Of a stretch of 8,183 nt of DNA, positions 1 to 8,183 are shown in pieces (positions within the stretch are counted from its first letter, which is position 1; the number at the start of each line of letters is the position of its first letter). The translations under genes and the position numbers were made by a program. Location of the stretch: IMG/VR virus record IMGVR_UViG_2778261512_000016. The stretch is one strand, 5' to 3'. The notes beneath the pieces are model-generated. The model saw nothing but the letters and a program-made list of their open reading frames with translations, was not told the origin of the DNA and did not search any database. The stretch comes from a virus (lineage: Duplodnaviria > Heunggongvirae > Uroviricota > Caudoviricetes).

Positions 1-431
1 CCATGGAGACGACATTCGTGCTGGATGCACTGGAGCAGGCGTTATGGGCCCGTCGACCGTCCGGCACGGTCCATCACAGTGATAAAGGTTCTCAGTATGT
101 ATCGCTGGCCTACACACAGCGGCTTAAGGAAGCCGGATTACTGGCATCAACAGGAAGTACAGGCGACTCGTATGACAACGCGATGGCGGAGAGCATCAAT
201 GGTCTTTACAAAGCGGAGGTAATACACCGTAAGAGCTGGAAAAACCGTGCAGAAGTGGAACTGGCCACACTCACGTGGGTGGACTGGTATAACAATCGAC
301 GATTGCTGGAAAGGCTGGGCCATACTCCTCCGGCAGAAGCAGAAAAAGCTTATTATGCTTCCATCGGAAACGATGATCTGGCAGCCTGAGTTCACAGATA
401 AAACACTCTCCAGGAAACCCGGGGCGGTTCA
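1..431 (+). mobile_element. 3' portion of an IS629-type (IS3 family) insertion sequence; the element continues beyond the left window edge and its terminal inverted repeat ends at 431
   Basis: Transposase OrfB C-terminus in frame at 3..389. The minus strand at 409..431 reads TGAACCGCCCCGGGTTTCCTGGAGAG, matching my recollection of the IS629/IS1203 terminal inverted repeat. Not database-verified. Confidence 0.75.
3..389 (+). CDS. IS3-family (IS629-like) transposase OrfB, C-terminal fragment (5' end lies outside the window)
   Basis: The translation carries the C-terminal part of a DDE integrase-core domain (HHSDKGSQYVS ... DSYDNAMAESINGLYKAEVIHRKSW ... TWVDWYNNRRLLERLGHTPPAEAE), the pattern of IS3-family OrfB. 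The ORF is open from the window edge and stops with TGA at 387..389. Confidence 0.9.
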   Translation: METTFVLDALEQALWARRPSGTVHHSDKGSQYVSLAYTQRLKEAGLLASTGSTGDSYDNAMAESINGLYKAEVIHRKSWKNRAEVELATLTWVDWYNNRRLLERLGHTPPAEAEKAYYASIGNDDLAA

Positions 432-556
432 CCACTCTTCCTTTGTTTAGATTGTAAACATTTAATACGGCAGTGACTGACAATAGCACCATTCTCAACG
501 CGCACAGTATAGAGGCCATCTTCAGTAAAAATTTCACGTAATTCTTCGATTTTCAT
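432..556 (-). pseudogene. 5' fragment of a small ORF interrupted by the IS629-type insertion (41 native codons, then read-through into the IS end to a stop at 392)
   Basis: Minus-strand ATG at 556 preceded by GGAAGGA 8 nt upstream; the translation MKIEELREIFTEDGLYTVRVENGAIVSHCRIKCLQSKQRKS then continues into the IS terminal repeat. A sigma70-like promoter lies upstream on the minus strand (-35 TTGAAG at 663..668, 18-bp spacer, -10 TAGAAT at 639..644). Identity of the original gene is unknown. Confidence 0.35.
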
Positions 557-680
557 CAACAGAATCCTTCCAGATAAATAGCACTCCCCTGTTCGGGGTC
601 CATCCCTCTTATCCCTGCGCGCTACTTAAGTATTTTTGATTCTATTCCGGCACCGCCCAGAACTTCAAACGCGTTGAAAA

Positions 681-708
681 TAAAAACAAAAACCCGCCGA
701 AGCGGGTT
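681..708 (-). terminator. Rho-independent terminator at the 3' end of the hok mRNA
   Basis: Minus strand reads AACCCGC-TTCG-GCGGGTT followed by TTTGTTTTTATTTT: a GC-rich 7-bp stem with a tetraloop and a U-run, about 70 nt downstream of the hok stop. Confidence 0.6.
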
Positions 709-776
709 AAATGCGGGTGCGTTGAGAATGCCTGACACATCAGAGGTGGCGAGGGATTTCTCCCCCGCCGGGTCTC

Positions 777-932
777 TTACTCCTCAGATTCGTAAGCTGT
801 GAAGACAGCGACCTCCGTCTGGCCGGTTCGGATTCGTACCTCGCAGAGGTCTTTCCTCGTTACCAGTGCCGTCACTATGACGGTTAAACAGATGACGATC
901 AGGGCGATTAACATCGCCTTTTGCTGCTTCAT
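777..932 (-). CDS. hokD: Hok/Gef-family small membrane toxin (type I toxin), 51 aa, closest from memory to HokD/RelF
   Basis: Translation MKQQKAMLIALIVICLTVIVTALVTRKDLCEVRIRTGQTEVAVFTAYESEE has the Hok hallmark (single TM helix, then RKxLCE ... EVAAF/VF ... YE). GGAG lies 9 nt upstream of the ATG at 932. The product is internal to the 70-aa ORF listed at 777..989. Confidence 0.85.
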   Translation of the reverse strand: MKQQKAMLIALIVICLTVIVTALVTRKDLCEVRIRTGQTEVAVFTAYESEE

Positions 933-989
933 AGCCTGCTTCTCCTTGCCTTTCGGCACGTAAGAGGCTAACCTACGTGTGTAGAGCAT
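777..989 (-). CDS. mok: mok-like reading frame (in-frame upstream extension of hok, as in mokC/hokC)
   Basis: ATG at 989 opens a 70-aa frame whose first 19 aa (MLYTRRLASYVPKGKEKQA) precede the hok Met. This resembles the in-frame mokC extension of hokC as I recall it. The function is regulatory coupling, not a distinct protein. Confidence 0.5.
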   Translation of the reverse strand: MLYTRRLASYVPKGKEKQAMKQQKAMLIALIVICLTVIVTALVTRKDLCEVRIRTGQTEVAVFTAYESEE

Positions 990-1045
990 AGATATGGCCT
1001 CAGATTAATGTTAAGCGTCTTGCCGGACGCGTAATGTTAACTGGG
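981..1045 (+). ncRNA. sok: Candidate Sok-type antisense RNA covering the mok start and SD region (boundaries approximate)
   Basis: Plus-strand promoter-like elements inside mok: -35 TTGCCT (946..951), 17-bp spacer, -10 TAACCT (969..974). The predicted start near 981 is antisense to the mok initiation region. A small hairpin GCGTC-ttgccg-GACGC lies at 1014..1029, flanked by TAATGTTAA direct repeats, and is followed by a U-rich stretch. Placement is by analogy to sokC/mokC geometry; the 3' end is uncertain. Confidence 0.35.
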
Positions 1046-1107
1046 GCTTTTCTCTATCTGCCTTTGGTGTTGATGCCCGAGGCAGATAGCCTCAAGCACC
1101 CGCAGCA

Positions 1108-1136
1108 ATTCTACTTAACTACCGTTACCTCGCCAA
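1108..1136 (-). promoter_or_regulatory. hok/mok mRNA promoter (sigma70 type)
   Basis: Minus strand: -35 TTGGCG (plus coords 1131..1136), 17-bp spacer, -10 TAGAAT (1108..1113), predicted start about 1100. The leader that follows (GGGTGCTTGAGGCTATCTGCCTC ...) resembles the plasmid R1 hok mRNA 5' end as I recall it. Confidence 0.5.
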
Positions 1137-1611
1137 TATGAAATCAATCAGAAAGGTGATCCATAAGAACAACAGCAAGACAATAAATTGCCATTACAGC
1201 AGCAATAGCCAGCGCACATTTGAGAACCAGCACCACAACCTCCTGTATTGGACGTACACCAGTCCTGATAAATATGAGGCTGTCTCGTCAGTGATTCAAT
1301 ACAACTACTGGGTATAGTTTCTATGATTTTGTTCTGTGGAAATGGAAAACAGCAACCAGTCACCACCAGCACTTCTTTAAACATGCCAAGTCACACGCAA
1401 GCCAACATTATAGTTCCCTTTGAGCGAGCAGATGAAGCTAGCAAAAATATTGATCACTTAGGATGCATTACTAACGTTGCTATGTGTTAACGAACAGGGA
1501 GTGGGTCATCAGCATAAATATTTATGCAGTAGGTTTCTTTTAGGACTAGATTAATCAAAAACATTTAGATAAAATTATAAAATCAAGAAATTGGTGGCAA
1601 TTAATCTTTAA

Positions 1612-1640
1612 TTGTGCCAGCTGAATTTCGTTATTATAGA
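1612..1640 (+). promoter_or_regulatory. Candidate promoter for the two-gene cargo operon
   Basis: -35 TTGTGC (1612..1617), 17-bp spacer, -10 TATAGA (1635..1640), followed by a T8 tract (1649..1656) and the RBS GGAGAG (1665..1670). The match is weak, and promoter-like hexamers occur readily by chance in AT-rich DNA. Confidence 0.25.
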
Positions 1641-1674
1641 AGATTAGCTTTTTTTTGAGTGTTTGGAGAGTAAA

Positions 1675-2370
1675 ATGTTAGAACCACCAAAGAGTTATAA
1701 TGAAATGTTGCCTATGCTCCATAAGGCGACTTTTATTACTACATTTATATTTTACCTATCATTAGTCATTTATGGCTACATGCCATTGGTTGGCATTAAT
1801 GCCAAGTATATCCCCCCCGTTAAAGACTACGAGGAATTTATTAAATGGATATTAACCTTTGGCATATTACCAATTGCATCTTCAGTTTTTTGGTCAGTAA
1901 TTAGTGGAGCTTTAGATCTACATAATAATGTAGCAAAAATTATTGGAATAAGGAAGATGTGGGATAGTCATTTAATTATTAAACCATTAGCAAAAATTGC
2001 AGGCGTTACGAGAAAATTAACTACTGATGAATCTCACAAGGTAATGAGTAAACTGTATTACCCAGAAGTTAAAGAGTTAAAAGACAAACATTACGTTGAA
2101 CTTTTCTGGAACAAAGTTTATTACTTTTGGGTTTTCTTTGAACATACAGTAATCGCATTTGTTACTATTTTAATAATAAGTATCGCCAAATTAACAAATA
2201 TATTCTCTGTTACTGGCTCTTTAATTAATCTTTGGTTGTGGATTATTTCTCTTGTCGCATTTGACTTCCTTATTTTCATAGCATCAGTTAAACCAAGAAC
2301 AGAAAGCCAAGTAAGACAAATACCTGATAGCAAAATAAAAGAATTCTTTAACAATAACAATATTTTTTAA
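1675..2370 (+). CDS. Hypothetical integral membrane protein, 231 aa, four predicted TM helices (two N-terminal, two C-terminal, separated by a charged soluble region of about 65 aa)
   Basis: ATG at 1675 with GGAG at 1665..1668 (the listed ORF starts at an upstream TTG at 1663). Hydrophobic segments: ATFITTFIFYLSLVIYGYMPLVGI, FIKWILTFGILPIASSVFWSVISGAL, FWVFFEHTVIAFVTILIISIAKL, VTGSLINLWLWIISLVAFDFLIFIASV. Low-GC codon usage. No family recognised by eye. Confidence 0.65.
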   Translation: MLEPPKSYNEMLPMLHKATFITTFIFYLSLVIYGYMPLVGINAKYIPPVKDYEEFIKWILTFGILPIASSVFWSVISGALDLHNNVAKIIGIRKMWDSHLIIKPLAKIAGVTRKLTTDESHKVMSKLYYPEVKELKDKHYVELFWNKVYYFWVFFEHTVIAFVTILIISIAKLTNIFSVTGSLINLWLWIISLVAFDFLIFIASVKPRTESQVRQIPDSKIKEFFNNNNIF

Positions 2371-2382
2371 ACGAGGTTGATT

Positions 2383-3036
2383 TTGAATTACAAAATAAAT
2401 GGAATAAACATACGTTCAGAAAATGCAGCGAAACCGCACACTATGCCATCTAACTATCTCTGTAAACAGATTGAAAGCACTAATAAAAATGGCAATGCCC
2501 TTGATTTTGGATGTGGAAAACTTAGATATTCAGAACAATTAGTAAATAAATTTGAAACTGTGACATTTTTAGATTCCAGAAGACAACTAGAAAGAGTGCA
2601 AATTATCAGAGGTGTACAAACCACGATTCCAGATTACGTGATAAATAACTATAAGAATGCTAATATTGTTTCTTATGAAAATATAGATAAAATAACAAAT
2701 CATTATGATTTCATACTTTGCGCAAACGTGCTTTCCGCAATTCCATGTGAATCCACAATTCACAAAGTCCTCAGTGCGATTAGAGAATTATTAAAGAGTG
2801 ATGGTGAAGCACTGATTGTCAATCAATACAAAAGTTCTTATTTCAAGAGGTACGAGAGCGGTATTAAACATTTGCATGGGTATATATACCAAAACTCTCG
2901 CAATGCTTTCTACTATGGTTTATTAGATGTGGATACTGTAAGTAAAATATGCTCAGATAATAATTTAGAAATAATAAAATCATGGAGCAAAGCAGGTAGT
3001 TCATATGTGGTTGTTGGTAAACATATACATATTTAG
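2383..3036 (+). CDS. Class I (Rossmann-fold) SAM-dependent methyltransferase-like protein, about 217 aa; not a DNA methyltransferase by motif content
   Basis: Motif I LDFGCGKL, acidic post-I residue in TVTFLD, motif II HYDFILCANVLSAIP, motif III LLKSDGEALIV. No DPPY/NPPY-type catalytic motif or target-recognition domain. Start is uncertain: TTG at 2383 sits 6 nt after GAGG (2373..2376); alternatives are TTG 2377 and ATG 2443. It begins 13 nt after the upstream stop, so it is probably co-transcribed or translationally coupled. Confidence 0.65.
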   Translation: MNYKINGINIRSENAAKPHTMPSNYLCKQIESTNKNGNALDFGCGKLRYSEQLVNKFETVTFLDSRRQLERVQIIRGVQTTIPDYVINNYKNANIVSYENIDKITNHYDFILCANVLSAIPCESTIHKVLSAIRELLKSDGEALIVNQYKSSYFKRYESGIKHLHGYIYQNSRNAFYYGLLDVDTVSKICSDNNLEIIKSWSKAGSSYVVVGKHIHI

Positions 3037-3350
3037 TTTATTTCAACAAATTATTAGAAAGAGTGATTTGCTTGTTAATTATTAGCTCGGCAGTGCCGGA
3101 TCAACATGACCCTGCCACTTAGGCCATTGCCGGTTTACCTACTTTTGTAAGGTTCAGCATGAAGTTTTTATATACTCTTCCTAATATCAATAGTGATGCT
3201 CGCTTATGTTAGCTGCTTCTTGTACATAGTAGCCTTCTCCGACAGTACTGCAATGAGCGGAGAGTAAAAGTCGATAAACAATAAGGAGGTTCACAATAAA
3301 TATTTCTCGGTGAAACTTTCAAAGCATTCTCTGTTTTGCTAAATCGACAA

Positions 3351-4250
3351 TTATAAATCAACAACATTTAGTGTTATATCAATATTATTTAGCCTTGCAA
3401 TCTCTGATGAATCACTTGCTATTTTAGCTTTTAATTTATCAATATTAATCATATCTTCATGGCTTATATAAACCATATCACCTTGGTTAACTTTAGATTT
3501 GTTCACTATGGCTTGAATAACAGACAAATCATCCATTACACCTCTCATAAATTTCACCATGCTTTGATCTTTGAAGTCAGATATCGATTTTGAACGTTGC
3601 TTACGTTGAATTGTTCCTTTTGTAATTACTTCATTAATTTCTTTTAAACCAGTGAGCATATCAGACAGACTGCCTTCGCAACTCATCCGATGTTTTATTG
3701 CATTGCGATTAATAATATTGAGTATAATTTCGAGTGAATCTTTATCACTCCATGGATGTAATGATGTATAATCATGATGGCGTCGAATGGCGTCAATCAT
3801 ATCCTGGACCATATCTTCATCTGCTTTATCGCAAAGTTCATTCACGAAATAGCTGGGGTCGATTATTTTACAATAACTTGGAGTTAGGTATCTTGAGGCT
3901 TTACAAAAACCAAAAATATATAAAGTAGAGTATTTATCTTTCAGACTCTCTCCTATTTCATTTATTTTCTCAAAAGATTCGATAGTTTTTTTAATTTTTG
4001 CTGGACTTGCATTCGTAGTAACTTGAACTGCTATCATGTTTTTATTATCAGCTAAATCAATGGCGGGAAAATTAACTTTAATCTGATTCATGTTTACCAG
4101 TTCACTCATTTTCAGCGCGCGAAACATAAAGATGGTCAATGACTCAATTATTCTTTCCATGTCATGAAAGCCTGCCTGTTTGCGTTGCGCGATATAAAGC
4201 TGGAGTAGTGCAATATCACTCTGTAAGTTTCTAATAAGTGGATCAATCAT
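3351..4250 (-). CDS. Hypothetical 299-aa protein; the N-terminal region resembles what I recall as the SMEK-type domain (NFPAIDLADNKNMIAVQVTT ... KIKKTIESF) and the C-terminal alpha-helical region contains an R-x4-H motif (RNAIKH) compatible with a HEPN-like RNase
   Basis: Long minus-strand ORF with ATG at 4250 and AAGGA 9 nt upstream; AT-rich codon usage matching the neighbouring cargo genes. Domain assignments are from memory and motif inspection only. Confidence 0.6.
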   Translation of the reverse strand: MIDPLIRNLQSDIALLQLYIAQRKQAGFHDMERIIESLTIFMFRALKMSELVNMNQIKVNFPAIDLADNKNMIAVQVTTNASPAKIKKTIESFEKINEIGESLKDKYSTLYIFGFCKASRYLTPSYCKIIDPSYFVNELCDKADEDMVQDMIDAIRRHHDYTSLHPWSDKDSLEIILNIINRNAIKHRMSCEGSLSDMLTGLKEINEVITKGTIQRKQRSKSISDFKDQSMVKFMRGVMDDLSVIQAIVNKSKVNQGDMVYISHEDMINIDKLKAKIASDSSEIARLNNIDITLNVVDL

Positions 4251-4286
4251 AGCTAATAATCCTTTTCAATGAAGCTGGAGGTGTGT

Positions 4287-4303
4287 TTAACTATTAGTTA
4301 AAT
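4287..4303. promoter_or_regulatory. Perfect 8+1+8 palindrome TTTAACTATTAGTTAAA in the 5' leader/promoter region of the 299-aa gene; candidate operator
   Basis: Read directly from the sequence, 37 to 53 bp upstream of the start codon at 4250. AT-rich context raises the chance-palindrome rate. Confidence 0.25.
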
Positions 4304-4502
4304 TTCTATTTTTATAGAAACAAGCTTTACAACTTCATCAAAGTTTCTCAAATCCTAATCCACTTTGCAAATCCACTAACCATGCTGAATGCTTTCTGTT
4401 GTTAAACATATCCGCTGCTGGCACCAAGCAGACAAACACACTAACTCTACCCTACTCCACAAAAGAGCCAATCAATATCTGAACTAATAAACTTTAATCT
4501 CA

Positions 4503-4925
4503 TCACTTCAATAAATATCGAGCATTTCCCTGATAGAATGCTAGTATGCGCTGCATAACTTCACTCTTCCGGCACTCGCGACAGATTATGTTCTGACGCC
4601 TGTCGTAGCGACGTATTTCTCCGTCAGGTAATGACCAGATAAGGTCCGGATCAACCGCAGATGGTTCCTTCAGCTTTGCCCTTGAGAGCTTTTTACGGGC
4701 ATTTTGCCAGTCCTTACGCGCCTGTTCAGACGGGAATAACCCGTAACCAGAGTTGTATACATCGCCGCTGGCAACCAGCTCTCTTGCGAGAACGCTCATC
4801 AGATATCTTGTCGCACCTGTCTTGACTTCCAGTTGCCGTAACGTCTCACGCCCACTCCGGCGTACGAGTTCAACAACCTGCCCTTTAATTTTTTCCCGCT
4901 CTTCTTGTGTAAAAACTTTTGCCAC
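4503..4925 (-). CDS. Hypothetical prophage protein, 140 aa, basic; function unknown
   Basis: GTG start at 4925 with AGGAGG 4 nt upstream; host-like GC content; it follows the replication initiator gene on the same strand. No family recognised. Confidence 0.55.
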   Translation of the reverse strand: MAKVFTQEEREKIKGQVVELVRRSGRETLRQLEVKTGATRYLMSVLARELVASGDVYNSGYGLFPSEQARKDWQNARKKLSRAKLKEPSAVDPDLIWSLPDGEIRRYDRRQNIICRECRKSEVMQRILAFYQGNARYLLK

Positions 4926-4965
4926 AAGCCCTCCTGAAAATTACCTCATGACCAGAAATTAACAC

Positions 4966-5931
4966 TTACCCCCTGAAGCCCGGCGGAATTTCGGTATCCG
5001 GCTCAGAAATATGATTCACACAACGCTGTACAGACGAACGCCCCAGGCGGATAACCAGTTCATCCCATTTTTCGCGAAGCTTTGACGGACTCATGATATT
5101 TTTTACCCAGAATGGATCCCGCTGCACCCGACCAAACATTTCACAAATTTGTCTGTGAGTTCTGCCATCCAGCATCCGCATTGTGCGCACGTCGTTGGCC
5201 CATGCGGTCCAGTTGGGTTCTTTCGGTCGCGAAATCTCGCCATCATCGCTGGCGGCCTGCTCGTAAAGACTCACGATTCGCCCCCAGATCCACTGCGCAC
5301 ACGCCAAATCTTCCTGGCTGCCCCACTGGCGTTTTTTCGCACTGAACACAACCGCGTCAGGGTGTCGGGTTAAAAAATCCTGTTCAACCGTCTGCGGGTC
5401 CGGTTGCGAAGCTTCCGGACGAGAAGTCTTTTTATTCTCTGTAGTAATCTCTGTTGTATTCTCTGTAAGATCATCAGGCCATTTTGACCCGATGACATTG
5501 AGTCGTTTTGAACCAATGGAGCGTTTCATTTTGACCTCTTCCATCGTGTCATTTTGACCTGATGGAGCGGCGCATTTTAAACCGATGGATTCGCTCAATT
5601 TGCCACCATCTAAAAGCTCGCTCCCGTAGTTGATCGTGTAGAAATTGGTCATATCGCGCTTTGATTTATTGAGCTTTTCACAACGCAAAAGCCCCAGCGT
5701 TTTCAGACTTGCAAACGCGCGCTTTAACGTTGACTCTGACCAGAATGGGAACTGTTCCAGCCATTGTTCCGTTGTGTTATAAATCCAGCGAACACCATCA
5801 CATTCCATGCCGGAGTTGGTATCTCTCAACCAGTAGTGCAGTTGTTGCAAAACAATGGCTTCGTTTAAGCCAATTTTCATTGCCAGCTGCGTGTTTATAA
5901 CCAGTGGGCGTTCAGCAAAAAGAAGACTCAT
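4966..5931 (-). CDS. Lambdoid replication initiation protein (lambda O-like / replisome organiser) with the origin embedded in its coding sequence
   Basis: N-terminal winged-helix-like region (WIYNTTEQWLEQFPFWSESTLKRAFASLKTLGLL); the central region is encoded by the iterons (repeated SIG.K peptides); C-terminal domain ends ... SKLREKWDELVIRL. Preferred start is ATG at 5931 (GGATGG upstream); the listed ORF extends to a TTG at 5985. It overlaps the upstream gene by 20 nt. Confidence 0.7.
   Translation of the reverse strand: MSLLFAERPLVINTQLAMKIGLNEAIVLQQLHYWLRDTNSGMECDGVRWIYNTTEQWLEQFPFWSESTLKRAFASLKTLGLLRCEKLNKSKRDMTNFYTINYGSELLDGGKLSESIGLKCAAPSGQNDTMEEVKMKRSIGSKRLNVIGSKWPDDLTENTTEITTENKKTSRPEASQPDPQTVEQDFLTRHPDAVVFSAKKRQWGSQEDLACAQWIWGRIVSLYEQAASDDGEISRPKEPNWTAWANDVRTMRMLDGRTHRQICEMFGRVQRDPFWVKNIMSPSKLREKWDELVIRLGRSSVQRCVNHISEPDTEIPPGFRG
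5425..5592. repeat. Putative phage origin of replication: five direct iterons of about 18 bp at roughly 23-bp spacing (5480..5590) followed, in the gene sense, by an AT-rich tract (5425..5478)
   Basis: Plus-strand units CATTTTGACCCGATGACA, TCGTTTTGAACCAATGGA, CATTTTGACCTCTTCCAT, CATTTTGACCTGATGGAG, CATTTTAAACCGATGGAT starting at 5480, 5503, 5527, 5550, 5573. The layout mirrors lambda ori inside gene O. Confidence 0.6.
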
Positions 5932-6433
5932 AATTCCATCCAGCTTTTTGTTGGTATTGCTGTCGATACGCAAGCTTGAAAGCAATTGCTTTTTCTATAA
6001 GTTCGTCAGTTTCACGATCTACAACGGCAGGATCTGCAAAAAGCAGTCCGGATTCCACCACATCGCCATATTCTTTATTTAACCCGGCGATCATGTACGT
6101 AATACTTTTTCCATCACTGATCTCACGATACAACCTGAAATCACTAATCCGGATAGCCTCCATAATCGCAGGCACTAGCGCCGTGAACTTTTCACGCTTA
6201 TCCCTGGTGTCGATAGCCTTCCAGCGTTCGAATATCTTCACTCGATTAACGCCAAGCGCTCGCTGATCAACCGCGCCACCTTCATCTGTGACACGCTGAA
6301 CATCGATGTTCGGGCGCTCTTTCAAAGCCCAGAATGCTTCAGTGATTAATATCGTCGCCTGCTCCTGTGTCATTCCTGGTCGACATATCCAGGCATCCAG
6401 AGCCTCACGAGCCTGTTCAGGAGTGATTTTCAT
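5912..6433 (-). CDS. Prophage protein, 173 aa, in the position of the CII/YdaT-type gene downstream of cro; possibly YdaT-family
   Basis: ATG at 6433, overlapping the dicC stop by 17 nt (translational coupling). Synteny cI-like / cro-like / this gene / replication initiator matches Rac-type racR-ydaS-ydaT-ydaU. Family assignment is by position, not by a recognised motif. Confidence 0.6.
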   Translation of the reverse strand: MKITPEQAREALDAWICRPGMTQEQATILITEAFWALKERPNIDVQRVTDEGGAVDQRALGVNRVKIFERWKAIDTRDKREKFTALVPAIMEAIRISDFRLYREISDGKSITYMIAGLNKEYGDVVESGLLFADPAVVDRETDELIEKAIAFKLAYRQQYQQKAGWNYESSFC

Positions 6434-6647
6434 TGTTCAACCGCCCCGCCCGCTTCGTCTTACGATATTCATCATAAACTTTGGGATCATACTGAAGCTC
6501 CCCGCCAGATGCCTCCTGTAGACGCATCGCGCGACCTTCGGGAACTAAATCCCCTTTCCAGCTATAAAGCGAAGCCAAACGAATACCTGCTGCTTGTGCA
6601 AGTTTTGTTTTTGAACCGAAATACAAAAGAGCGTCAGTTTTAAGCAT
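6417..6647 (-). CDS. dicC: Cro-like HTH regulator DicC (76 aa)
   Basis: Translation MLKTDALLYFGSKTKLAQAAGIRLASLYSWKG ... matches my memory of DicC/YdaS-type Cro-like proteins. AAGGTG lies 6 nt upstream of the ATG at 6647. Divergent from dicA. Confidence 0.85.
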   Translation of the reverse strand: MLKTDALLYFGSKTKLAQAAGIRLASLYSWKGDLVPEGRAMRLQEASGGELQYDPKVYDEYRKTKRAGRLNNENHS

Positions 6648-6661
6648 TTAAAACACCTTTA

Positions 6662-6709
6662 TTGTTAGTCATGACTAACAAAATAGATGTTAACAAAAAC
6701 ATAGTCAAT
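6662..6709 (-). promoter_or_regulatory. dicC promoter with overlapping operator: perfect 20-bp palindrome TTGTTAGTCATGACTAACAA (6662..6681)
   Basis: Minus strand: -35 TTGACT (plus coords 6704..6709), 17-bp spacer, -10 TATTTT (6681..6686). The palindrome lies immediately downstream, over the predicted start. The dicA promoter in the same intergenic region could not be placed confidently. Confidence 0.55.
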
Positions 6710-6730
6710 ACGATTTAGCATTAGCTAACT

Positions 6731-7138
6731 ATGGAAACAAAAAATTTAACTATCGGCGAACGCATTAGGTATCGTCGGAAAAACCTCAAACACACCCAAA
6801 GGTCTCTTGCTAAAGCCCTGAAAATCTCCCATGTGTCTGTATCACAATGGGAACGGGATGATAGTGAACCTACAGGGAAGAACCTTTTTGCCCTCAGCAA
6901 AGTATTGCAATGCTCACCAACATGGATTCTATTTGGCGATGAAGACAAGCAACCAACACCACCTGTTGAGAAGCCAGTTGCCTTATCCCCCAAAGAACTA
7001 GAGCTCCTTGAGCTGTTTAATGCACTGCCAGAATCAGAACAGGATACCCAGCTCGCCGAAATGCGAGCTCGAGTAAAAAACTTCAATAAACTCTTTGAAG
7101 AATTACTAAAAGCCCGTCAGCGGACAAATAAAAGATAA
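6731..7138 (+). CDS. dicA: CI-like HTH (XRE-family) repressor DicA, 135 aa
   Basis: Translation METKNLTIGERIRYRRKNLKHTQRSLAKALKISHVSVSQWER ... matches my recollection of E. coli DicA (135 aa). HTH in the N-terminus; divergent from the cro-like gene. Confidence 0.9.
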   Translation: METKNLTIGERIRYRRKNLKHTQRSLAKALKISHVSVSQWERDDSEPTGKNLFALSKVLQCSPTWILFGDEDKQPTPPVEKPVALSPKELELLELFNALPESEQDTQLAEMRARVKNFNKLFEELLKARQRTNKR

Positions 7139-7160
7139 CATCATCAATGAGTTATCTTTT
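7133..7160 (+). terminator. Weak hairpin overlapping the dicA stop (AGATAAC - 11 nt loop - GTTATCT, then TTT); possible attenuating terminator
   Basis: 7-bp AT-rich stem with a short U-run; weak. K-12 dicA is thought to read through into the ydfABC-dicB operon, so this may be only a partial terminator or nothing. Confidence 0.2.
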
Positions 7161-7171
7161 ACCACATCAAT

Positions 7172-7227
7172 CATGTTAGCCATAACATACAAAATTACTT
7201 GACCTATATGTTAGCCATGGCTAATCT
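7172..7227 (+). promoter_or_regulatory. Promoter of the ydfA-ydfB-ydfC operon with DicA-operator-like sites
   Basis: -35 TTGACC (7199..7204), 17-bp spacer, -10 TAATCT (7222..7227). The spacer contains the perfect 14-bp palindrome TTAGCCATGGCTAA (7211..7224), and a further copy of ATGTTAGCCAT lies at 7172..7183. The half-site TGTTAG(C/T)CA matches the dicA/dicC operator palindrome. Confidence 0.45.
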
Positions 7228-7304
7228 TATTTGCATCAACACACCGCACGGTGTTCTCAGCAAACAGTTCCGCTACCCCGGCGTTAAGGGGAAATGAGGT
7301 CAAC

Positions 7305-7460
7305 ATGGATACTATCGATCTTGGCAACAGCGAATCTCTGGTATGTGGCGTGTTCCCCAACCAGGACGGTACGTTCACCGCGATGACGTATACCAAAAGC
7401 AAAACGTTTAAAACCGAATCTGGAGCGCGTCGCTGGCTGGAAAGAAATTCAGGTGGGTGA
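7305..7460 (+). CDS. ydfA: Small prophage protein, 51 aa, YdfA-like
   Basis: ATG at 7305 with GAGG 5 nt upstream (MDTIDLGNSESLVCGVFPNQDGTFTAMTYTKSKTFKTESGARRWLERNSGG). Length and position after dicA match K-12 ydfA as I recall it. The listed ORF starts further upstream at 7251. Confidence 0.7.
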   Translation: MDTIDLGNSESLVCGVFPNQDGTFTAMTYTKSKTFKTESGARRWLERNSGG

Positions 7461-7461
7461 T

Positions 7462-7590
7462 ATGGATTTCGACACAATCATGGAAAAGGCTTACGAAGAA
7501 TACTTCGAAGGTCTTGCCGAAGGCGAAGAAGCTCTCAGCTTCAGCGAATTTAAACAGGCACTTTCCAGTTCGGCAAAATCTAACGGCTGA
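7462..7590 (+). CDS. ydfB: Small acidic prophage protein, 42 aa, YdfB-like
   Basis: ATG at 7462, 1 nt after the ydfA stop, with AGGTGGG upstream (MDFDTIMEKAYEEYFEGLAEGEEALSFSEFKQALSSSAKSNG). Below the ORF-track size cut-off; found by reading the sequence. Confidence 0.6.
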   Translation: MDFDTIMEKAYEEYFEGLAEGEEALSFSEFKQALSSSAKSNG

Positions 7591-7619
7591 TAAGCGAAAC
7601 AGCACCGCGAGGAATCAGT

Positions 7620-7838
7620 ATGCAGAAACGAGAACCCGTCATCATCGCGCCAGACTATACCGATGATGAACTTTATGAGTGGATGCGCCAGAAAATTAAT
7701 GCAGCGCAGGATCTGAAATGGGCCAATGAAGCCAGGGCTAAGCAGGCTGAAAATCTGTCCGCTCTGGAGCAGGATATCACTAATCTGGAAAAAGCAGCGA
7801 CATTAAGCATTGCCAGAATGATTACATACCCGCGTTAA
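7620..7838 (+). CDS. ydfC: Small prophage protein, 72 aa, YdfC-like
   Basis: ATG at 7620 with GAGG 7 nt upstream (MQKREPVIIAPDYTDDELYEWMRQKINAAQDLKWANEARAKQAENLSALEQDITNLEKAATLSIARMITYPR). Third gene of the dicA-downstream operon. Confidence 0.75.
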   Translation: MQKREPVIIAPDYTDDELYEWMRQKINAAQDLKWANEARAKQAENLSALEQDITNLEKAATLSIARMITYPR

Positions 7839-8183
7839 TAGCTAACCAACGAAGCTAAGGTTGGTAATTAAGGAGTTCTCCACGGATGAGGTGGAGTGCG
7901 TGCGCCGGACACGGGTGAGCATCCGGCACTGACAGTTTACTGAAAGGATATTTCCCTGAAAAGTCAGACCATAACGCGAAAGCGCACGGCGAGGTAGCTG
8001 GTTCATAGATAGCCTGTCGTTAAATTTTCGTCGACCGTGCGCTTCCGGTTGTGGCAATCCGCGAAATGGCGCGGCGGTAAGTATGGCGGGGTTATTCCTT
8101 CCCCCGTTGAGGACACCGGGTTGTCAGGTTGACCATACGCTTAAGTGACAACCCCGCTGCAACGCCCTCTGTTATCAATTTTC

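What the first reader, a model, noticed from the sequence alone, without database searches (positions are those of the whole stretch)
681..1136. Complete hok/mok/sok-type locus with HokD-like toxin but no relBE upstream
The locus has all the hallmarks of an autonomous hok-type module: a sigma70 promoter, a leader resembling the R1 hok leader, an in-frame mok extension, a Hok ORF, a 3' terminator, and a 3' element (plus coords 713..726, GCGGGTGCGTTGAG) nearly perfectly complementary to the mRNA 5' end (1091..1103, CTCAAGCACCCGC). That pairing is the classic fold-back-inhibition arrangement. The Hok protein is, from memory, nearly identical to K-12 HokD/RelF, which in K-12 sits at the end of the relBEF operon. 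Here relBE is absent (I translated the upstream region in three frames and found no RelE-like sequence) and the AT-rich island lies upstream instead.
Basis: partly seen in the sequence, partly recalled or inferred. Interest (0 to 1): 0.5.

Follow-up and report, generated by a model that had tools for sequence, protein, structure and literature searches.

The report
Intact prophage hok/sok toxin-antitoxin cassette
This is an ordinary, intact copy of a well-known small "toxin plus antisense RNA" cassette (hokD/hokW type) carried by a Qin-like prophage of E. coli; the laboratory strain K-12 is the odd one, because there the relBE genes have replaced the front half of the cassette.

Summary
On the minus strand of window 681..1136 lie a sigma-70-like promoter, a hok-type leader (Rfam RF01794, 114 bits against a threshold of 59), a 70-codon mok frame that runs in frame into a 51-codon hok (Pfam HOK_GEF, 2.9e-23; 50/51 identical to K-12 HokD), a 3' element complementary to the mRNA 5' end, and a terminator. 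A Sok-like antisense gene lies on the plus strand at about 981..1051.

No RelE or RelB is encoded anywhere in the window. K-12 homology stops 14 nt upstream of the hok ATG.

- 3928 of 5426 complete E. coli genomes hold at least 80% of the cassette. The K-12 relE-hokD junction is in 1167.
- The literature already states that K-12 hokD was truncated by a rearrangement involving relBE integration.

One side lead: the roughly 20-nt block facing the Sok 5' tail is about nine times more variable than hok third-codon positions among otherwise near-identical cassettes.

The parts
1108..1136 (-). hok/mok promoter: -35 TTGGCG (1136..1131), 17-nt spacer, -10 TAGAAT (1113..1108)
   Evidence: Consensus scan gives 9 of 12 matches. 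The -10 hexamer and the bases downstream are shared with VT2-Sakai hokW.
686..1103 (-). Predicted full-length hok mRNA, about 418 nt. The 5' end is inferred to within about 2 nt from the -10 position and the start of the Rfam model.
   Evidence: MFE -177.7 kcal/mol with z = -7.4, and the 5' and 3' ends pair. In most of 120 viral-contig loci, homology to the window ends at 1100-1139 on one side and 680-719 on the other, so this is a discrete cassette.
1091..1103 (-). tac element: mRNA 5' end GCGGGUGCUUGAG
   Evidence: Pairs with 713..726 in the MFE fold. The stretch 1100..1091 is invariant in 96 unique cassettes. Aligns with the 5' ends of the R1 hok and K-12 hokC leaders.
1043..1051 (-). ucb element (AAAAGCCCC), the alternative partner of tac in the processed mRNA
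   Evidence: The Rfam RF01794 consensus structure pairs model positions 1-8 with this stretch. The pairing is partly reproduced in the MFE fold of the mRNA truncated to 745.
927..1101 (-). hok leader, matching the full Rfam RF01794 model
   Evidence: 114 bits against a gathering score of 59, E = 4.6e-26. The match is in hok-sense orientation.
777..989 (-). mok reading frame: 70 codons, ATG at 989..987, SD GAGG at 1001..998, in frame with hok
   Evidence: ORF list. 65/70 aa identical to MokW of VT2-Sakai.
777..932 (-). hok toxin CDS: 51 aa plus stop, SD at about 945..942
   Evidence: Pfam HOK_GEF 2.9e-23. 50/51 aa identical to K-12 HokD. 48/51 aa identical to HokW. RefSeq annotates the identical DNA in strain C7 as hokD.
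946..974 (+). Predicted Sok promoter: -35 TTGCCT (946..951), 17-nt spacer, -10 TAACCT (969..974)
   Evidence: Read directly from the sequence. Nearly invariant in related cassettes. It fails the simple scan, so it rests on positional inference. K-12 loses it at the relE junction.
981..1051 (+). Predicted Sok antisense RNA: single-stranded 5' tail, long hairpin, U-rich 3' end
   Evidence: The sokW misc_RNA of AP000422 maps onto 981..1051. The predicted fold has an unpaired 5' tail and a hairpin of about -30 kcal/mol. K-12 sokC starts at the equivalent position relative to the mokC ATG.
976..996 (.). Hypervariable block. It covers the target of the Sok 5' tail (sokT), the mok start codon and the first mok codons.
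   Evidence: Mean pairwise difference is 0.31 per site, against 0.036 at hok third-codon positions. There are 22 variants in 96 unique cassettes.
713..726 (-). fbi element (CUCAACGCACCCGC), complementary to the mRNA 5' end
   Evidence: Homology with VT2-Sakai ends right after it.
681..708 (-). Intrinsic terminator: stem-loop 708..691 followed by a T-run
   Evidence: Terminator scan finds 7 pairs, 5 of them G-C, then TTTGTTTTTA.

Best explanation
Window 681..1136 is an intact, autonomous hok/mok/sok type I toxin-antitoxin cassette of the hokD/hokW subtype. It is carried on the minus strand of a Qin-like lambdoid prophage.

Inferred mechanism, by homology to R1 hok/sok and to hokW-sokW:
1. The promoter at 1136..1108 makes a stable mRNA of about 418 nt. 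Its 5' end (tac) is locked to the 3' fbi element, so the mRNA is neither translated nor bound by Sok.
2. Slow 3' trimming removes fbi. The 5' end then refolds onto ucb, and the mok ribosome-binding site and the Sok target become exposed.
3. The short-lived Sok RNA, made from the plus strand at about 981..1051, pairs through its single-stranded 5' tail with the mok start region. This blocks mok translation, and with it the coupled hok translation, and marks the duplex for RNase III.
4. When Sok supply stops, Hok is made and depolarises the inner membrane.

Steps shown here at sequence level: all the elements and their positions, the tac/fbi pairing and its co-variation, and the match of the leader structure to the family model. 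Steps inferred only: processing, translational coupling, Sok expression and the biological role.

The only role shown for this subtype is earlier lysis and roughly two-fold more phage release on induction of Sp5. Prophage retention and exclusion of other phages remain possible.

The K-12 relB-relE-hokD arrangement is the derived state. There the 5' 170 nt of the cassette (promoter, tac, ucb, mok start, sok) were replaced.
For: - All elements are present.
- The MFE fold pairs the 5' and 3' ends with z = -7.4.
- The pairing is stronger than chance and co-varies across 14 classes of loci.
- The cassette is 94.9% identical over 408 nt to the annotated mokW/hokW/sokW of VT2-Sakai.
- hokW-sokW has been shown experimentally to be a type I TA system. 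HokW is toxic. sokW expressed from its own promoter neutralises it, and sokW promoter mutations abolish that protection. Both RNAs were seen on northern blots (PMC8621323).
- The K-12 breakpoint is 14 nt upstream of the hok ATG.
- There is no relBE in the window.
- The complete cassette is in 3928 of 5426 E. coli genomes and the relE junction in 1167.
- The cassette has sharp, recurrent boundaries in 120 viral contigs.
- The literature on the K-12 hokD truncation agrees.
Against: - No expression data exist for this particular copy.
- The predicted Sok -10 hexamer (TAACCT) matches only 3 of 6 consensus bases and fails the simple scan.
- MFE folds of 3'-truncated mRNAs reproduce the tac/ucb refolding only partly.
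- The chromosomal hok loci tested by Pedersen and Gerdes did not mediate post-segregational killing (as cited in bioRxiv 10.1101/2025.08.07.668861). The biological role of this copy is therefore open.
Confidence: 0.9

Rival explanations
1. The cassette is structurally intact but functionally silent. On this view it is a relic like the chromosomal hok loci that failed to kill in plasmid-loss or rifampicin tests, and it has no role for prophage or host.
For: - The chromosomal hokA, hokB and hokC loci tested did not mediate post-segregational killing (citing Pedersen and Gerdes 1999).
- The Sok -10 hexamer is weak by consensus.
- An IS element has already hit the neighbouring rem-like gene, so this prophage is decaying.
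Against: - Every regulatory element is conserved. hok, the Sok hairpin and tac differ by only 0.03-0.06 per site across 96 cassettes, which argues for purifying selection.
- The 95%-identical hokW-sokW is active.
- The IS lies 259 nt beyond the terminator and leaves the cassette untouched.
Confidence: 0.12
2. This is a K-12-type relBEF operon in which relB and relE lie elsewhere in the window or are too diverged to recognise. On this view hok would be transcribed from the relB promoter.
For: The Hok protein is 98% identical to K-12 HokD/RelF.
Against: - tblastn of RelE and RelB finds nothing better than E = 0.29.
- No Pfam RelE/ParE hit is found among the ten ORFs scanned: the mok/hok ORF, the truncated rem-like ORF, two unannotated ORFs at 1138..1384, the three island ORFs, and the ORFs at 4503..4925, 4966..5985 and 5912..6433.
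- The leader with its own promoter occupies the place where relE sits in K-12.
Confidence: 0.01
3. The 5'/3' complementarity is a chance match in G+C-rich sequence and has no structural role.
For: Shuffled 3' UTRs sometimes give equally strong duplexes: 18 of 5000, with a minimum of -30.6 kcal/mol.
Against: - It is the best partner of the 5' end in the whole window apart from its own antisense.
- It sits at a conserved offset, 44-57 nt after the stop codon, in 13 of the 15 5'-end classes listed. The two exceptions are +34 in L070 and +3 in L081; a third, +26 in L009, has a diverged 5' end and was left out of the test.
- It changes together with the 5' end in Photorhabdus, Sodalis, Mixta and Dryocola loci.
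- Cognate pairs beat non-cognate pairs in all 20000 permutations.
Confidence: 0.01

Closest known systems
hokW/mokW/sokW of Stx2 phage VT2-Sakai (Sp5) and 933W
   Same: - Same cassette: 94.9% nucleotide identity over window 713..1120.
- Same promoter -10, tac, ucb, Sok hairpin, Sok promoter and fbi.
- Mok is 65/70 aa identical and Hok 48/51.
- It has been characterised experimentally as a type I TA system (PMC8621323).
   Different: - 6 of 16 positions differ in the Sok-tail target.
- Hok differs at T45V, A46D and E51K.
- The sequence after fbi, including the terminator, and the -35 region are unrelated.
- In VT2-Sakai the cassette sits near the end of the phage record, next to unrelated genes. 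Here it lies between the rem/DUF968/RusA/Q genes and the replication genes.
hokD (relF) of E. coli K-12, the last gene of the relB-relE-hokD transcription unit in prophage Qin
   Same: - From 14 nt upstream of the ATG to beyond the terminator, the DNA is 98.6% identical.
- The protein is 50/51 identical.
- The prophage neighbourhood is the same: rem, DUF968, and further on dicC-dicA-ydfABC.
   Different: - K-12 lacks the hok promoter, tac, ucb, the mok start, and the Sok promoter and gene. relE sits in their place.
- In K-12 hokD is co-transcribed with relBE (PMC3598666).
hok/sok (parB) of plasmid R1
   Same: - Same architecture and same order of elements.
- The tac motif GCUUGAGGCU.UCUGCCUC, ucb, the mok SD and the hok SD region all align.
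- The Hok fold family is the same.
   Different: - Hok is only 45% identical.
- By my own reading of the R1-type sequence, R1 mok is not in frame with hok. Here mok runs in frame into hok, as in mokC/hokC.
- The Sok hairpin here carries an insertion of about 18 nt.
- R1 hok/sok is plasmid-borne with a plasmid-maintenance role; this cassette is prophage-borne.
hokC/mokC/sokC (gef) of E. coli K-12
   Same: - Hok is 84% identical.
- mok is in frame with hok.
- The annotated sokC starts at the same position relative to the mok ATG.
- The leader aligns throughout.
   Different: In K-12, IS186 lies 20 bp downstream of the hokC stop codon and removes the fbi region. Here the 3' end is intact, and the nearby IS is 259 nt beyond the terminator.

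Membership tests
[quoted passage not shown] | Small (about 50 aa) hydrophobic Hok/Gef toxin | tested here: met
   Pfam PF01848 HOK_GEF, 2.9e-23 and 81.6 bits against a cut-off of 22, covering the full profile. The NCBIfam Hok subfamily also hits, but below its curated cut-off at 51 bits against 73.
[quoted passage not shown] | Overlapping upstream mok reading frame with its own Shine-Dalgarno sequence | tested here: met
   A 70-codon ORF at 989..777 with GAGG 8 nt upstream of its ATG. 65/70 aa identical to the annotated MokW.
[quoted passage not shown] | hok translation depends on mok translation (translational coupling) | not testable with these tools
   Needs reporter fusions or mok start-codon mutants.
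[quoted passage not shown] | Conserved leader sequence and structure (tac, ucb, target hairpin) | tested here: met
   Rfam RF01794 covariance model matched over its full length at 114 bits against a gathering score of 59. nhmmer finds the same leader upstream of the hok gene in 69 of the 80 other loci.
[quoted passage not shown] | Long-range pairing of the mRNA 5' end (tac) with a 3' element (fbi) | tested here: met
   Present in the MFE fold. 18 of 5000 shuffles pair as well. Co-variation test gives 0 of 20000 permutations.
[quoted passage not shown] | Cis-encoded antisense Sok RNA covering the mok translation-initiation region, with its own promoter and terminator hairpin | tested here: inconclusive
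   The position, hairpin and U-tail match the annotated sokW (mapping to 981..1051) and sokC. However, the promoter fails the consensus scan, and no transcript data exist for this copy.
[quoted passage not shown] | 3' processing of the full-length mRNA triggers refolding and activation | tested here: inconclusive
   MFE folds of truncated mRNAs show the tac/ucb pairing only partly and only for one truncation point. Needs RNA mapping.
K-12-type relBEF (relB-relE-hokD) operon | relB and relE immediately upstream of hokD on the same strand | tested here: not met
   tblastn best E-values are 0.29 (RelE) and 1.5 (RelB). The alignment shows the hok leader where K-12 has relE.
hokD/hokW subtype (prophage-borne cassette) | Near-identity in DNA over the whole cassette to annotated hokD or hokW loci | tested here: met
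   100% identical to the locus that RefSeq names hokD in strain C7. 94.9% identical to hokW of VT2-Sakai. 96.5% identical to phage HannyBb.

The most novel reading that the evidence does not exclude
The roughly 20-nt block at 996..976 faces the single-stranded 5' tail of Sok and includes the mok start. It may be a specificity determinant that is kept diverse.

What the data show:
- Otherwise near-identical hokD/hokW cassettes fall into at least six major classes.
- These classes differ at 6-9 of the 16 tail positions.
- The block differs about nine times more per site than hok third-codon positions.

If this diversity is maintained by selection, it would let up to ten co-resident prophage copies each stay addictive or inducible without being neutralised by one another's Sok.

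The evidence does not exclude the duller reading. The block may simply be the only stretch of the cassette free of protein, promoter and structural constraints, and so drift fastest.
Probability: 0.35. Interest if true: 0.4.

Novelty: already known. Interest (0 to 1): 0.15.

Why it matters
For genome annotation the point is modest. RefSeq labels only the 51-codon hokD here and omits mok and sok, so the locus looks like the crippled K-12 gene when it is in fact the complete cassette. It also shows that the textbook relBEF operon of K-12 is a derived arrangement, found in about a fifth of complete E. coli genomes, in which relBE replaced the control region of a prophage hok/sok module. Nothing here changes what is known about how hok/sok works.

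The only forward-looking point is the hypervariable Sok-tail block. It offers a simple, testable question about cross-talk between the many prophage copies in one cell.

Tried and rejected
- relBE hidden in the window: tblastn and blastn of the K-12 relBE-ydfV region found nothing. Rejected.
- DicF sRNA at the right end of the window, expected between ydfC and dicB in Qin: no Rfam hit even at E <= 1 in 7700..8183. It probably lies beyond the window end.
- PADLOC gives no hit for Mok/Hok. That library simply does not model it.
- NCBIfam Hok models hit below their curated cut-offs. These were not used as evidence of subtype.
- The search for related loci with a six-member Hok alignment failed because no stretch was conserved enough. 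A three-member alignment worked.
- Two scripts failed because loci fetched second in a turn were not copied to the script machine. I worked around this by pasting sequences in.
- MFE folding of 3'-truncated mRNAs did not cleanly reproduce the published active fold. I therefore do not claim the refolding step from my own computation.
- A test of whether co-resident copies within one genome avoid the same Sok class could not be done. Only two genomes with three copies each were in hand, and all copies differed. That is not significant.
- The small ORFs between the hok promoter and the AT-rich island (1138..1384, including a hydrophobic 30-aa frame at 1236..1144 on the minus strand) have no family hits and are not annotated in RefSeq. 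I treat them as chance ORFs.

Full report
**What is there**

The window is part of a Qin-like lambdoid prophage of E. coli. From 432 to 8183 it is 100% identical to the chromosomes of several strains, for example C7 and CD45. From left to right it holds:
- the end of an IS3-family insertion sequence (1..431);
- the N-terminal 41-42 codons of a rem-like gene cut by that IS (559..432, minus strand);
- the hok locus;
- an AT-rich three-gene island (about 1400..4450, G+C 0.32 against 0.45-0.53 in the flanks);
- a DUF977 gene, a replication-type gene and a YdaT-family gene;
- dicC, dicA and ydfA/B/C.

**Check of the observation**

- Promoter: TTGGCG-17-TAGAAT at 1136..1108. Terminator: 708..691 plus a T-run.
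- The ORF 989..777 has 70 codons. Its last 51 codons are Hok.
- Hok matches Pfam HOK_GEF at 2.9e-23 and is 50/51 identical to K-12 HokD.
- The leader 1101..927 matches the whole Rfam RF01794 model at 114 bits, against a gathering score of 59. This family is named sok, but the match is in hok-sense orientation, so in practice it models the hok leader.
- The quoted sequences at 713..726 and 1091..1103 are correct.
- In the minimum-free-energy fold of the 418-nt transcript, those two elements pair with each other. The fold z-score is -7.4.

The pairing is more than chance:
- Apart from the antisense of the 5' end itself, it is the strongest partner of the 5' end in the whole 8.2-kb window.
- Only 18 of 5000 dinucleotide shuffles of the 3' UTR do as well.
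- I fetched 80 hok loci from other genomes, and nhmmer found the same leader in 69 of them.
- In 13 of the 15 5'-end classes listed, the best complement of the 5' end lies 44-57 nt after the stop codon. The exceptions are +34 in L070, +3 in L081, and +26 in L009, whose 5' end is diverged and which was left out of the next test.
- That complement changes together with the 5' end. For example, Photorhabdus has CGGGCGCUUGAGA opposite UCUCAAGCGCCCG, and Mixta has CGGGUGCUCUGGAUC opposite GAUCCAUGAGCACCC.
- Cognate pairs are better than non-cognate pairs in all 20000 permutations.

**The antisense gene**

On the plus strand, TTGCCT (946..951), a 17-nt spacer and TAACCT (969..974) precede a predicted RNA that starts at about 981. 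This RNA has an unpaired 5' tail, a long hairpin and a U-rich end.

The promoter does not pass the simple consensus scan. I rely on position instead:
- The sokW RNA annotated in phage VT2-Sakai maps exactly onto 981..1051.
- K-12 sokC starts at the same place relative to the mokC ATG.

**relBE**

K-12 RelE and RelB find nothing in the window; the best E-values are 0.29 and 1.5. In the K-12-type genome, near-identity to the window (98.6%) runs from beyond the terminator up to window 946, which is 14 nt upstream of the hok ATG. From there on K-12 has relE. K-12 hokD therefore keeps the Shine-Dalgarno sequence, the coding region, fbi and the terminator. It lacks the promoter, tac, ucb, the mok start, and the Sok promoter and gene.

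**Why it is not new**

- Phage VT2-Sakai (record AP000422) annotates mokW, hokW and sokW at the homologous place. Identity is 94.9% over 408 nt, Mok is 65/70 aa identical and Hok 48/51.
- Takada et al. 2021 (PMC8621323) characterised hokW-sokW experimentally:
  - HokW is toxic.
  - sokW expressed from its own promoter neutralises it, partly dependent on RNase III and Hfq.
  - Both RNAs are visible on northern blots.
  - The locus advances lysis and doubles phage release after mitomycin C.
- PMC6379469 states that the ancestral hokD ORF has about 70 codons and is only 51 codons in K-12 because of relBE integration.
[quoted passage not shown] PMC12214031 says the same of the K-12 loci other than hokB, naming hokA, hokC and hokE as the ones hit by insertion elements. 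The pairing of the rearrangement with hokD specifically is my own recollection of the 1999 paper.
- Among 5426 complete E. coli genomes, 3928 hold at least 80% of the 456-nt cassette, with a median of 2 and up to 10 copies per genome. Only 1167 hold the K-12 relE-hokD junction.
- Seventy-four sequenced phages also carry at least 80% of it.

**Cassette boundaries and neighbourhood**

In 120 IMG/VR contigs that contain the cassette, homology to the window ends at 1100-1139 on the promoter side in 89 loci. It ends at 680-719 on the terminator side in 79 loci.

The slot upstream of the hok promoter carries different cargo in different prophages:
- the AT-rich island here;
- queH in APEC O18;
- relBE-ydfV-flxA in K-12.

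The K-12 state looks like one more cargo event in this slot, one that happened to cut into the cassette.

**Mechanism**

Shown here:
- the parts and their order;
- the 5'/3' pairing and its co-variation;
- the fit of the leader to the family model.

Inferred from R1 hok/sok and hokW-sokW (established knowledge plus PMC9841398, and PMC8621323):
- the full-length mRNA is inert;
- 3' trimming releases the 5' end, which then pairs with ucb;
- mok and the Sok target are exposed;
- Sok blocks mok and hence hok, and the duplex is cut by RNase III;
- when Sok synthesis stops, Hok is made.

My truncated-mRNA folds reproduce the refolding only partly, so that step rests on the literature.

The biological role of this copy is open. 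The only demonstrated role for this subtype is help with lysis on induction. Chromosomal hok loci tested earlier did not mediate post-segregational killing.

**Side lead**

Among 14 closely related cassettes, and then among 96 unique cassettes from viral contigs, variation is concentrated in one block, 996..976. This block comprises the target of the Sok 5' tail, the mok ATG and the first mok codons.
- Mean pairwise difference is 0.31 per site in the block.
- It is 0.036 at hok third-codon positions, 0.027 in the Sok hairpin and 0.086 in the 3' UTR.
- There are 22 variants in about six major classes, which differ at 6-9 of the 16 tail positions.
- In the two genomes where three copies were in hand, the copies differ from one another in the block.

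Because Sok is cis-encoded, any change keeps cognate pairing but alters cross-reactivity.

Caveats:
- The viral set was collected with a pattern that fixes the immediate flanks.
- Third-codon positions in this highly structured mRNA are not neutral.
- The block may simply be the least constrained stretch of the cassette.

I did not find this described in the papers I searched, but that search is limited.

**Verdict**

The feature is a textbook hok/sok cassette of the hokD/hokW subtype, already annotated and experimentally studied in a sister phage. Interest is low.

Noticed in passing
window 976..996: This block faces the predicted Sok 5' tail and includes the mok ATG. It is hypervariable among otherwise near-identical hokD/hokW cassettes: 0.31 differences per site against 0.036 at hok third-codon positions. 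There are 22 variants in 96 unique cassettes, and the major classes differ at 6-9 of 16 tail positions. These may be Sok specificity classes.
   Followed up: partly
window 1400..4450: An AT-rich island (G+C about 0.32 against 0.45-0.53 in the flanks) holds three genes. They are a 235-aa membrane-like protein with no family hit (1663..2370, +), a class I SAM-dependent methyltransferase (2377..3036, +), and a SMEK-domain protein (3351..4250, -). The N-terminus of the SMEK protein hits a PADLOC model, Aga_REase-PNTD1-PNTD2, at 8.6e-21. This could be anti-phage cargo. At least 80% of the whole 8183-bp window, which includes the island, is present in 142 of 5426 complete E. coli genomes.
   Followed up: partly
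window 1137..4500; compare L086 2956..3830 and L002 3334..4800: The slot between the hok promoter and the DUF977 or replication genes carries different cargo in different Qin-like prophages. Here it is the AT-rich island, in APEC O18 it is queH, and in K-12 it is relBE-ydfV-flxA. This suggests a cargo hotspot, and the K-12 insertion cut into the hok leader.
   Followed up: partly
window 1..431 and 432..559: An IS3-family insertion sequence ends at 431 with the terminal inverted repeat ...GGGGCGGTTCA. From memory it resembles IS629/IS1203. It truncates the rem-like gene, of which only the N-terminal 41 or so codons remain. None of the 15 top-ranked complete genomes listed aligns across the IS junction; all start at window 432. 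The IS lies 259 nt beyond the hok terminator and leaves the cassette intact.
   Followed up: partly
window 791..794 (minus strand TACG, Tyr47 codon of hok): The Tyr47 codon sits in a UACG context, which from my own knowledge is the TadA editing motif. It is conserved in all 14 close relatives examined. In K-12, hokD mRNA is reported to be A-to-I edited at a low level (6%), recoding this tyrosine to cysteine (PMC12214031; alignment).
   Followed up: no
window 927..1101: The Rfam family RF01794, named 'sok antitoxin', matches on the hok-sense strand. Its consensus runs from the hok mRNA 5' end to the hok AUG, so in practice the model describes the hok leader rather than the Sok RNA.
   Followed up: no
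window 1144..1236 (minus strand): A 30-codon, GTG-initiated, strongly hydrophobic ORF (MVLVLKCALAIAAVMAIYCLAVVLMDHLSD) lies immediately upstream of the hok promoter. It has no family hit and is not annotated in RefSeq. It is probably a chance ORF.
   Followed up: partly
window 7700..8183: No DicF sRNA match was found even at E <= 1, although dicC, dicA and ydfA/B/C are present as in Qin. dicB starts beyond the window end in strain C7, so dicF probably also lies outside the window or is diverged.
   Followed up: partly
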